Position numbers and translations under genes: made by a program. A DNA stretch of 64,000 nt from Escherichia coli (GTDB lineage: Bacteria > Pseudomonadota > Gammaproteobacteria > Enterobacterales > Enterobacteriaceae): the NCBI RefSeq assembly GCF_029227855.1, contig NZ_CP074356.1. One strand, 5' to 3'. The notes under the pieces are model-generated. The model worked only from the letters and a program-made list of their open reading frames with translations. It was not told where the DNA came from and did no database searches. Of this stretch, positions 18,008 to 20,231 are shown piece by piece; within the stretch, counting starts at the first letter, position 1; every line of letters begins with the position of its first letter.

Positions 18008-20231
18008 GGAAAACTCCCCAGTGTTGCAGCGATGCCAGTGCCTGCTGTTCGAGTTGTTGATGATGTGCAATGGCTTGTGGTGGACAATGCAACGGCATTT
18101 GCAGCGCTGAAACGGGAAGCTGTGCGAGCTGGTAATGCTCAAGCACCTGATGCGCCAGCGTCCCGCGTTCTCGTGGTGGTAGCCAGGCCATCGCTGCGCG
18201 TAAATCGGGCAGGGCGTTAATAAAATCGTCGTCACTCAGTTGATTTAAATGACTACTGAAACCGGCGATAAATGCCGGCTGACAGGCCAGTTGATGGCGG
18301 GCCAGCGCCAGCATCGTCAGCGCCGCTTCGGCACTGGCGTTGGGATGTTCCAGACGCATTAGTGCGCCAAGAGCCGCGCTGCGATCCAGCGCCGGGGCAT
18401 GAATCGCCTGACTGCGGCGCTCCAGTAAGGCTACCGCCGCAGAAAGCGAAACGCCGGGTAAATTAACGCCGCTATGTAGATCGCGCAGGATATGGCAAAG
18501 CGCCTGCCAGCTATGCAGGTGAGCGTGAAACTCCTTTTCCTCCGGTCTGCCGTTGGATTCACACAGCCAGAGTGTGCGATCGATAGCCGCGCATAACGTC
18601 GTCTGTAATATCTGCGCGCCTTGCATACCGCTAATTTCATCCAGCCGCCATAAGGCGTATAGCACTTCCAGCGCCTGGCCCATTTCGGCAAACTGATTTT
18701 CCTGGGCGATTAATAATGTAAGTTGCTCCAGTAATTGTTGACTGAAGGACGCCAGACCCGCTAACGCCGCCTGGCTAAGACATGTGGTGATACTGCCGAT
18801 TCCACCCGCGTCCAGCATATCGGCTTCTAATTTATTGCGTGCGGCTTCCTGGAGTGTGGCACCAAAGCAGGCGGCCTCAATCAATGCCGCATGCTGGCTA
18901 AGCGGGCGGGTTAATTTCCAGCGTTCTTCACCGTTGCCTGCAAGTGTCAGTGTGCTTCCCTGCTGGCGTACAATCCCTGGGATCTCCAGTATTACCAGCC
19001 GATGTAACACCTGACTTTGCGCCAGTCCATCGGGGGTAAAGCGATTTAAGGTAAGCTCTGCCGGAAGAGAGATTGTGGTACGTTCCAGTTCGCAGGTGAC
19101 ATCTTTTGGCAGAGGCGGCTGTGGCGTAGAGGGGGCAAGTTTACCGAATCCGCCACCCGCTAATGTGTCTATCAACGTTAGCAGAATCGGATCGGTATCG
19201 GGATGAATAACGCCGCGATAGCTCCACGGCAACGGCGCGTTCAAGGCTTCTTTAATCAGCGAGCCTGCTATGGCATCCAGCCAGTCAGTGCGTAACGGTA
19301 GTGTATGACCGCGCAACTGTGCCAGCGCCATCGCATGCAGATGAGCGGCAGCCATATCAGCGGTAGAAGCGGGCAATTTGTGCTGGCGCAAACGGGTAAG
19401 GATAGTTTTTAGCAGTTGTTCACCGGCCTGCTGTAGGCCCCACTGCCAGCACCAGTTTTGCCAGACCGGGGCAGGCATACCAGAAAGGTATCCTGCCAGC
19501 ACATCAAGGCGCTTTTCACTGTAGGGGGTGAGATAACAACCTGTAACGGCATCTGCCAGCTAGGGCAATTCCGGCGTGTTAATTTCCTGCGTGTATTCGC
19601 GCCACATCTTTGCCAGTGCCGGAGCATGCCAGCCGCCGCAGACGACTAACACGTCGCCATTGTTTTGCTGCATCGCCCATCCAATCCAGCGGGCCATAAA
19701 GGCTTCGCGCTGACGATTGAGGGCATCTCCGGGGGAATCGCCCCGCAGTTGTGCAAAATAGTGCGCCAGCGCAGAGGGTAATGCAGTTTGCTGGCTTTCA
19801 TCTTCGAACAAGTGATCCCACAGGGTGTCGCTGTTATCCATGCGGGTGGCACGCAGCAGTAAGGTCTGGCTGTCATCTTGCGTATCGGGTGATTCGTCTT
19901 CTTCTTCACTCTGCGCCCAGCAAGGCAAATCGATGAAGTAAGTTTGTGCCTGAATACGACGTGCGGCTTGTAGCGCCTGCCACTCCGGCGAAAATTCAGC
20001 AAATGGCGTCCAGGCACCACGCCCGGGGGCTGCACCGTCCTGATACTGGCAATAACTGTAAATAGCTACCGGAAGCTGGTGGGCTAAAAACAGTTCGTCT
20101 ACCCGGTCATTAAAATCAGCCGGGCCTTCAATCAACACGTATCGTGGCCGCTGGCTTTCGATTAACGATTTCACCAGCCGGGCGCAGGCCGGACTATGAT
20201 GCCGGATGCCGACAATTAACGGCTCGCTCAT
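18000..20231 (-). pseudogene. yehM: yehM interrupted by an in-frame TAG (amber) stop at 19560-19562
   Basis: ORF-track pieces 19560-20399 and 18000-19502 are in the same reading frame, separated only by TAG; N-terminus MSEPLIVGIRHHSPACARLV recognised as YehM. Confidence 0.65.

What the first reader, a model, noticed from the sequence alone, without database searches (positions are those of the whole stretch)
19560..19562. In-frame amber stop interrupting yehM
The two ORF-track pieces covering yehM (19560-20399 and 18000-19502, both minus strand) are in the same reading frame and are separated only by a TAG codon at 19560-19562 followed by 19 sense codons before the next start codon. A substitution cannot be a homopolymer sequencing artefact, so this looks like a genuine nonsense lesion truncating YehM after about 223 residues.
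Basis: seen in the sequence. Interest (0 to 1): 0.5.

Follow-up and report, generated by a model that had tools for sequence, protein, structure and literature searches.

The report
Inherited amber stop inactivating yehM
One base change turned a serine codon of the uncharacterised E. coli gene yehM into a stop codon; it is a real, inherited pseudogene shared by about 214 sequenced strains (ST167 clone members among them) and already flagged in the public annotation, so it is ordinary.

Summary
On the minus strand, yehM (20231..18000) has an in-frame TAG at 19562..19560, which is codon 224. Nineteen sense codons follow before the next in-frame start.

The window is E. coli JNEC-KY178 (NZ_AP045174.1), where RefSeq already annotates yehM as a pseudogene, "internal stop". 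K-12 and four other divergent intact alleles all have TCG (Ser) at this codon, so the lesion is one C>A transversion on the coding strand.

It is not an assembly error. The TAG allele is exact in 214 of 5,426 complete genomes, and the TCG allele in 2,075. It sits on a discrete haplotype (213 genomes at >=99%, next best 96.9%) that includes published ST167 strains.

Other lesions lie in the same cluster:
- an 11-bp frameshifting deletion in the upstream ATPase gene yehL (junction exact in 225 genomes);
- a 48-bp in-frame deletion in yehM, between 9-bp direct repeats, found only in this strain;
- a 2-bp frameshift in yehI, found only in this strain.

These are the only three pseudogenes annotated in the 64 kb. 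The best reading is ordinary decay of a dispensable operon that is H-NS/StpA-silenced in K-12. Interest is low and the feature is already known.

The parts
18000..20231 (-). yehM pseudogene (DUF5682 family). It is 2,232 nt here against 2,280 nt in K-12.
   Evidence: RefSeq annotates it as 'internal stop'. It was aligned to K-12 b2120. In K-12 YehM, Pfam DUF5682 covers residues 20-715 of 759.
19560..19562 (-). Premature amber codon TAG at codon 224. The mutated base is 19561: T on the + strand, G in the ancestor; on the coding strand TCG>TAG. The next base is C.
   Evidence: The allele is exact in 214/5,426 genomes, against 2,075 for TCG.
19563..20231 (-). The 223 sense codons that can still be translated. 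They hold about the first 30% of the DUF5682 domain.
18000..19559 (-). Untranslated 3' remnant of yehM. The first in-frame starts are GTG at 19502 and ATG at 19478, and neither has a Shine-Dalgarno-like motif upstream.
   Evidence: the 20 nt upstream are ACAGTGAAAAGCGCCTTGAT and TGGCAGGATACCTTTCTGGT.
18305..18313 (-). The retained copy of the 9-bp direct repeat TGCTGGCGC. It marks a 48-bp in-frame deletion (K-12 codons 640-656), a second lesion in yehM found only in this strain.
   Evidence: A junction 45-mer is found in 1 of 5,426 genomes, the source record itself.
19153..19244 (-). Interval containing a recombination breakpoint. About 7 kb upstream is essentially identical to ST167 strain M217, and downstream is 1-5% divergent.
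   Evidence: The 3' half is closest to strains N3 and GF43 at 98.6%.
20242..21319 (-). yehL pseudogene (MoxR-type AAA+ ATPase). An 11-bp deletion (TCAAGTATGGC) between nt 355 and 356 (window 20965/20964) shifts the frame after about residue 118. It is first gene in the yehL, yehM, yehP, yehQ order.
   Evidence: The junction 70-mer is exact in 225 genomes.
16871..18007 (-). yehP (VWA domain protein), intact. Its ATG overlaps the yehM stop by 8 nt, so it would normally be translationally coupled to yehM.
14874..16874 (-). yehQ (SWIM zinc finger protein), intact. It overlaps yehP by 4 nt.
22276..25906 (-). yehI pseudogene (DUF4132). Two bases are lost from a T5 run, leaving T3 at 23550-23552. This is found only in this strain.
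   Evidence: Exact match in 1 of 5,426 genomes.

Best explanation
This is a genuine, vertically inherited nonsense mutation that makes yehM a pseudogene.

A single C>A transversion on the coding strand (G>T at window 19561 on the + strand) changed Ser224 TCG to the amber codon TAG. Translation ends there and releases a 223-residue fragment carrying only about 30% of the single DUF5682 domain. The remaining 519 codons are not translated.

The mutation arose once, on one distinctive yehL-yehM haplotype that published ST167 strains carry. On that haplotype it travels with an 11-bp frameshifting deletion in yehL, the AAA+ ATPase gene immediately upstream. In this strain the locus has decayed further, with a 48-bp slippage deletion in yehM and a 2-bp frameshift in yehI.

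The overall picture is erosion of an operon that is dispensable and that H-NS/StpA silences in K-12. It is not a regulated or recoded gene.

Shown here: the stop, the ancestral codon, its frequency, its haplotype, the co-occurring lesions and the recombination mosaic.

Inferred: that no functional YehM is made; that loss of translational coupling (and possibly Rho polarity) lowers yehP and yehQ expression; that the decay is neutral and not selected.
For: - Sequence: the TAG is in frame at codon 224.
- Ancestral state: TCG in K-12, MARGA_3, 536, SCEC020022 and O104:H4.
- Public annotation: 'internal stop' pseudogene in the source record and in M217.
- Not an artefact: the TAG 44-mer is exact in 214/5,426 complete genomes from varied hosts and countries, against 2,075 for TCG.
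- Single origin: the 2,171-bp yehL + yehM-5' block is >=99% identical in 213 genomes, and the next best is 96.9%.
- Lineage: the carriers M217, 51008369SK1, AR435, SCEC020007, WCHEC005237, AR_0149, AR_0150, AR_0151, AR_0162 and Sanji are listed as ST167 in PMC6392093.
- Linked lesion: the 11-bp yehL deletion is shared with M217, and its junction is exact in 225 genomes.
- Further decay in this strain: a 48-bp deletion between 9-bp direct repeats, in 1/5,426 genomes, and a yehI 2-bp deletion, in 1/5,426.
- Localised decay: the only three pseudogenes annotated in the 64 kb are yehI, yehL and yehM.
- Recent inactivation: differences from the closest intact haplotype fall mostly at third codon positions (yehL 0/0/18; yehM 7/4/26).
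- Severity: the stop falls inside the single DUF5682 domain, residues 20-715.
- No restart signal: there is no Shine-Dalgarno-like motif before the downstream in-frame starts.
[quoted passage not shown] They are deleted in Shigella sonnei lineages 2 and 3 (PMC12795559). K-12 itself has yehH as a pseudogene.
Against: - No raw reads, transcript data or protein data were available for this strain.
- A genome-wide search for a CUA-anticodon suppressor tRNA could not be run. Only the window was scanned, and it has no tRNA gene.
- From general knowledge, UAG followed by C is a relatively weak terminator in E. coli, so trace read-through product is possible.
- The counts for the two shared lesions are close but not equal (214 against 225). 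So linkage is not proven genome by genome, and the order of the two events is unknown.
- Neutral decay against selected loss was not tested.
Confidence: 0.92

Rival explanations
1. Sequencing or assembly error: the true genome has a sense codon (TCG) here and the TAG is a consensus mistake.
For: Only that no reads could be inspected. The same record has a private 2-bp loss in a T-run in yehI, which could be a homopolymer error.
Against: A substitution is not a homopolymer-type error. The identical TAG allele is present in 214 independent complete assemblies, on a shared 2.2-kb haplotype. Apart from the yeh cluster, the 64-kb window has no annotated pseudogenes, so the assembly is not generally noisy.
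Confidence: 0.01
2. The gene still works. Either the amber codon is read through or suppressed to give full-length YehM, or the two pieces are translated separately (restart at GTG 19502 or ATG 19478) and assemble as a split protein.
For: The 3' remnant is still an open frame of 500 codons with no further stop. From general knowledge, UAG-C is a weak termination context. Suppressor tRNAs were not excluded genome-wide.
Against: No Shine-Dalgarno-like sequence precedes either restart codon. The stop lies inside a single Pfam domain, not at a domain boundary. The partner ATPase gene yehL, immediately upstream, has an 11-bp frameshift on the same haplotype, which no amber suppressor could rescue. 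This strain has also lost 16 codons of the 3' remnant, which suggests relaxed constraint. The open 3' frame is expected for a recent lesion, and in this strain the 3' half was imported by recombination.
Confidence: 0.04
3. Selected loss and not neutral decay: inactivating the YehL/YehM module was advantageous and helped the carrying lineage succeed, for example by removing a costly or self-harming MoxR-VWA type system.
For: Two independent inactivating lesions are fixed on one haplotype carried by a globally successful clone. The same genes are lost independently in Shigella sonnei.
Against: The operon is already H-NS/StpA-silenced in K-12, so there is little expression cost to remove. Clonal hitch-hiking explains the frequency without selection. 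Only about 4% of complete genomes carry the allele. No convergent nonsense alleles were looked for. The YehL/M/P/Q/I proteins match no known defence-system model in PADLOC, so no function is known on which selection could be argued.
Confidence: 0.1

Closest known systems
E. coli K-12 yehM (b2120, NP_416624.1), 'uncharacterized protein YehM', Pfam DUF5682 (PF18934)
   Same: It is the orthologous gene at the same locus, in the same yehL-yehM-yehP-yehQ order, about 96% identical at the DNA level. One DUF5682 domain spans residues 20-715.
   Different: K-12 has TCG (Ser) at codon 224 and an uninterrupted 759-codon frame. The window has TAG there and lacks K-12 codons 640-656.
The ST167 yehM allele, e.g. 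strain M217 locus tag B7R44_RS09025, annotated by PGAP as a pseudogene with 'internal stop'
   Same: The first 1,078 nt of yehM are identical, including the TAG. yehL, with its 11-bp deletion, is also identical, as is the roughly 7 kb upstream apart from a few differences.
   Different: From about nt 1079 of yehM onward the window carries a different 3' haplotype (a recombination mosaic). It also has a private 48-bp deletion and a private yehI frameshift.
Other independent losses in the same gene cluster: the K-12 yehH pseudogene (b4499), and the ~7-kb deletion removing yehM and yehL in Shigella sonnei lineages 2 and 3
   Same: Loss of function in the same cluster in other lineages, which points to dispensability.
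   Different: The genes and mechanisms differ: a whole-gene deletion or other disruptions, not a point nonsense mutation.

Membership tests
Pseudogene by nonsense mutation (PGAP class 'internal stop') | An in-frame stop codon inside a region that aligns along its length to a full-length orthologue | tested here: met
   TAG at codon 224 of a 759-codon orthologue. The alignment is collinear before and after the stop.
Pseudogene by nonsense mutation (PGAP class 'internal stop') | Orthologues at the same locus in related genomes have a sense codon at that position and a single uninterrupted ORF | tested here: met
   TCG in K-12, MARGA_3, 536, SCEC020022 and O104:H4. K-12 has one uninterrupted 2,280-nt frame, and the other four are annotated as CDS with protein accessions. 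The TCG 44-mer is exact in 2,075 genomes.
Pseudogene by nonsense mutation (PGAP class 'internal stop') | The lesion is real, i.e. reproducible in independent sequence data | tested here: met
   Exact in 214 independent complete assemblies. The raw reads of this strain were not available.
Pseudogene by nonsense mutation (PGAP class 'internal stop') | No recoding: no suppressor tRNA and no programmed read-through that restores the full product | not testable with these tools
   Only the 64-kb window could be scanned for tRNAs, and none was found. The rest of the 5.09-Mb genome was not scanned. The linked yehL frameshift makes rescue of the system unlikely in any case.
DUF5682 family (Pfam PF18934), YehM orthologue | A significant match to the DUF5682 profile over most of the protein | tested here: met
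   K-12 YehM: i-Evalue 3.1e-98, residues 20-715. The window gene is its ~96% identical orthologue. The window's own conceptual translation was not scanned separately.
Naturally split gene (two functional adjacent cistrons) | The split state is the common or ancestral state, and the downstream piece has its own translation-initiation signal | tested here: not met
   The split state is in about 4% of genomes, on one haplotype. No Shine-Dalgarno-like motif lies upstream of GTG 19502 or ATG 19478.
Known anti-phage defence systems (PADLOC-DB v2.0.0) | Any of YehL, YehM, YehP, YehQ or YehI matches a defence-system protein model | tested here: not met
   Zero families at E<=0.01 for all five K-12 proteins.

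The most novel reading that the evidence does not exclude
The paired inactivation of yehL (11-bp deletion) and yehM (amber stop) was positively selected in the ancestor of the carrying lineage, which includes the ST167 high-risk clone. If so, the uncharacterised MoxR-ATPase / DUF5682 / VWA / SWIM module has a cost or activity in the host-associated niche. The retained intact yehP and yehQ may also have a function independent of YehL and YehM.
Probability: 0.08. Interest if true: 0.3.

Novelty: already known. Interest (0 to 1): 0.07.

Why it matters
It matters very little. The stop is already recorded as an 'internal stop' pseudogene in the RefSeq record for this strain and for its relatives, and yehM has no known function.

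The modest value is descriptive. The TAG plus the 11-bp yehL deletion define a discrete haplotype, in about 213-225 of 5,426 complete genomes, that could serve as a lineage marker for the ST167-type background. The locus is also a tidy example of stepwise decay of a gene cluster that H-NS silences in K-12: a point nonsense mutation, a frameshifting deletion, a slippage deletion and a recombination breakpoint, all within about 3 kb. Strains with this allele are natural yehL/yehM double nulls, should anyone want to study the operon's function.

Tried and rejected
1. A 70-nt junction query for the 48-bp deletion was uninformative, because the tool joined the two half-matches across the undeleted 48 bp. 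I replaced it with a 45-mer that undeleted genomes cannot seed (longest contiguous match 27 nt). This gave a clean result of 1 in 5,426.

2. PADLOC models against YehL, YehM, YehP, YehQ and YehI gave no hits. NCBIfam gave only weak sub-threshold AAA/VWA similarities for YehL and YehP, and nothing for YehM or YehQ. So no defence-system or other functional label can be attached.

3. The literature gave no function:
- 'yehLMPQ' and 'DUF5682' returned no papers.
- 'yehM' as a whole word is swamped by author names.
- The Kaur et al. 2020 eLife paper on MoxR-vWA conflict systems does not mention the Yeh proteins, DUF4132, WGR or SWIM. My recalled possible link to that paper is therefore unsupported.

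4. Amber suppressor: only the window could be scanned. I considered allele-specific searches with suppressor tRNA sequences but did not run them. Several tRNA species would each need a search, laboratory supE strains would fill the 60-row table, and the linked yehL frameshift makes the answer immaterial.

5. I considered and rejected a sequencing artefact, a natural two-gene arrangement, and programmed recoding. See the rival explanations.

6. I did not determine the sequence type of JNEC-KY178 itself, and no paper mentions the strain.

Full report
**Observation**

The window is identical to E. coli strain JNEC-KY178, a clinical isolate from Japan (NZ_AP045174.1:1,787,715-1,851,714, same orientation).

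- On the minus strand the sequence reads ...GAA TTG CCC TAG CTG GCA..., with the TAG at 19562..19560.
- Exactly 19 sense codons separate the TAG from the next in-frame start, GTG at 19502.
- A single-frame translation from the annotated start region to the annotated stop has one internal stop and is otherwise open.
- From the true ATG at 20231 the stop is codon 224, so 223 residues can be made.

The only correction concerns the ORF-track start at 20399, which is just the first possible start codon after the previous in-frame stop. The real start is at 20231, 10 nt after the yehL stop.

**What it is**

Alignment with K-12 yehM (b2120, 2,280 nt) shows TCG (Ser) at codon 224 where the window has TAG. 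That is a C>A change at codon position 2, or G>T at window 19561 on the + strand. The closest intact haplotype in the collection (MARGA_3) and three divergent strains (536, SCEC020022, O104:H4) also have TCG. The ancestral state is therefore secure.

In K-12 YehM, Pfam finds one DUF5682 domain spanning residues 20-715. The stop thus falls inside the domain and removes about 70% of the protein.

**Is it real, and how common is it?**

- A 44-nt query centred on the codon matches exactly in 214 of 5,426 complete E. coli genomes with TAG, and in 2,075 with TCG. The remaining genomes differ at other positions of the 44-mer or did not seed a match.
- The 2,171-bp block holding yehL and the 5' half of yehM is >=99% identical in 213 genomes. 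The next best genome is only 96.9% identical. So the TAG sits on one discrete haplotype and arose once.
- The carriers come from humans, dogs, cattle, a pheasant, and surface-water and wastewater samples in several countries.
- Ten of the carriers are listed as sequence type 167 in a published comparative study: M217, 51008369SK1, AR435, SCEC020007, WCHEC005237, AR_0149, AR_0150, AR_0151, AR_0162 and Sanji (PMC6392093).

An assembly artefact is therefore excluded for practical purposes, although this strain's own reads could not be inspected.

**The stop is not the only lesion**

1. yehL, the MoxR-type AAA+ ATPase gene 10 nt upstream, lacks 11 bp (TCAAGTATGGC) after nt 355. The frame shifts after about residue 118. 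M217 shares the deletion, and its junction is exact in 225 genomes. That is nearly the same number as for the TAG, and both lesions lie on the 213-genome haplotype.

2. yehM in this strain also lacks 48 bp (K-12 codons 640-656). The deletion lies between two copies of the 9-bp direct repeat TGCTGGCGC, the classic signature of replication slippage. A junction probe that cannot seed on undeleted genomes finds only this genome.

3. yehI, a DUF4132 gene upstream, has lost 2 bp from a T5 run. This too is found only in this genome. It cannot be told apart from a homopolymer error without reads.

These three genes are the only pseudogenes annotated among the 54 distinct annotated features of the whole 64-kb window. 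The decay is therefore local, and not a sign of a noisy assembly.

**History of the allele**

Differences between this haplotype and its closest intact relative fall overwhelmingly at third codon positions: yehL 0/0/18 and yehM 7/4/26 for positions 1/2/3. The genes were therefore under purifying selection for most of their divergence, and were inactivated recently by comparison.

Over about 7 kb upstream and through the first 1,078 nt of yehM, the window differs from M217 at only seven alignment columns, two of which are the yehI 2-bp deletion. Downstream the two differ by 1-5%. The 3' half is closest to unrelated strains N3 and GF43, at 98.6%. A homologous-recombination breakpoint therefore lies inside the pseudogene, between window 19244 and 19153, 3' of the stop.

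**How it most likely works**

Shown:
- a single transversion creates an amber codon within the domain;
- the first gene of the same operon is frameshifted;
- no Shine-Dalgarno-like motif precedes the downstream in-frame start codons.

Inferred from standard bacterial genetics:
- RF1 terminates translation at codon 224, and the 223-residue fragment is non-functional.
- The yehP ATG overlaps the normal yehM stop by 8 nt. Ribosomes no longer arrive there, so translational coupling is lost and Rho-dependent polarity may lower yehP and yehQ expression, even though both genes are intact.

Context:
- In K-12, yehL and yehM are up-regulated only when hns and stpA are deleted, with H-NS bound upstream (PMC3686432).
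- The genes are deleted in Shigella sonnei lineages 2 and 3 (PMC12795559).
- K-12 itself carries yehH as a pseudogene and a shorter yehQ.

Together these indicate a dispensable, mostly silent cluster that erodes repeatedly. I put about 0.9 on 'genuine inherited loss-of-function pseudogene'. Whether the loss was neutral or selected is not resolved. Neutral decay with clonal hitch-hiking is the simpler reading.

**Comparison with what is known**

The gene is the orthologue of K-12 yehM (DUF5682, function unknown). The lesion is a textbook nonsense pseudogene. The allele is the one already annotated in ST167 genomes.

No function could be attached to the operon. PADLOC has no model matching any of the five proteins. 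NCBIfam gives only weak generic AAA and VWA similarity. The searchable literature has nothing on DUF5682 or on the operon as a unit.

**Verdict**

However, the feature is ordinary and already in the public annotation. What this analysis adds:
- the ancestral codon;
- the population frequency;
- the single-haplotype origin and the ST167 association;
- the linked yehL frameshift;
- a second lesion in yehM private to this strain;
- an intragenic recombination breakpoint.

Interest is low.

**Aside**

The 575-bp yehK-yehL spacer (306 bp in K-12) contains an unannotated zorO/orzO type I toxin-antitoxin locus:
- an OrzO RNA match at 21431-21506 (-), 101 bits against a gathering score of 60;
- a 29-codon ORF at 21752-21841 (+);
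- divergent promoter-like sites between them.

Noticed in passing
window 20242-21319 (-), junction at 20965/20964: yehL (MoxR-type AAA+ ATPase, first gene in the yehL-yehM-yehP-yehQ order) carries an 11-bp deletion that shifts the frame after about residue 118. It is shared with M217, and the junction is exact in 225 of 5,426 genomes. It lies on the same haplotype as the yehM amber stop.
   Followed up: yes
window 18305-18313 (-), inside yehM: A 48-bp in-frame deletion (K-12 codons 640-656) between two copies of the 9-bp direct repeat TGCTGGCGC, which is a slippage signature. It is found only in this genome among 5,426.
   Followed up: yes
window 23550-23552 (-), inside yehI (22276-25906): Two bases are lost from a T5 run, which frameshifts the DUF4132 gene yehI. 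This is private to this genome (1 of 5,426). Without reads it cannot be told apart from a homopolymer assembly error.
   Followed up: partly
window 19153-19244 (breakpoint interval), within yehM: Recombination mosaic. The roughly 7 kb upstream (26500 down to about 19250) is essentially identical to ST167 strain M217. Downstream, the 3' half of yehM, yehP and yehQ are 1-5% divergent and closest to strains N3 and GF43 (98.6%).
   Followed up: partly
window 21431-21841 (yehK-yehL spacer, 21320-21894): An unannotated zorO/orzO type I toxin-antitoxin locus. It comprises a Rfam OrzO-P match at 21431-21506 (-), 101.3 bits against a gathering score of 60; a 29-aa ORF, MDTLTQKLTVLIAVLELLVALLRLIDLLK, at 21752-21841 (+); and divergent promoter-like sites at 21548..21520 (-) and 21543..21570 (+). 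The spacer is 575 bp here and 306 bp in K-12. The RefSeq record has no feature there.
   Followed up: partly
window 22276-34190: Three tandem ~1,200-codon DUF4132 paralogues (29723-33520; 25916-29710, which also has a WGR domain; and yehI). An IS200C transposase gene at 33732-34190 lies between the first of them and metG. In K-12 this stretch is yehF plus the yehH pseudogene.
   Followed up: no
window 19160-21330: The lesion-bearing yehL/yehM haplotype has no close intact relative among 5,426 complete genomes. Identity drops from >=99% (213 genomes) straight to 96.9%, and almost all the differences are at third codon positions.
   Followed up: partly
L003 (K-12) 17101-18945 versus window 14874-16874: K-12 yehQ is 1,845 nt, against 2,001 nt here and in M217. 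K-12 also has yehH as a pseudogene. So the laboratory reference carries its own independent changes in this cluster.
   Followed up: no
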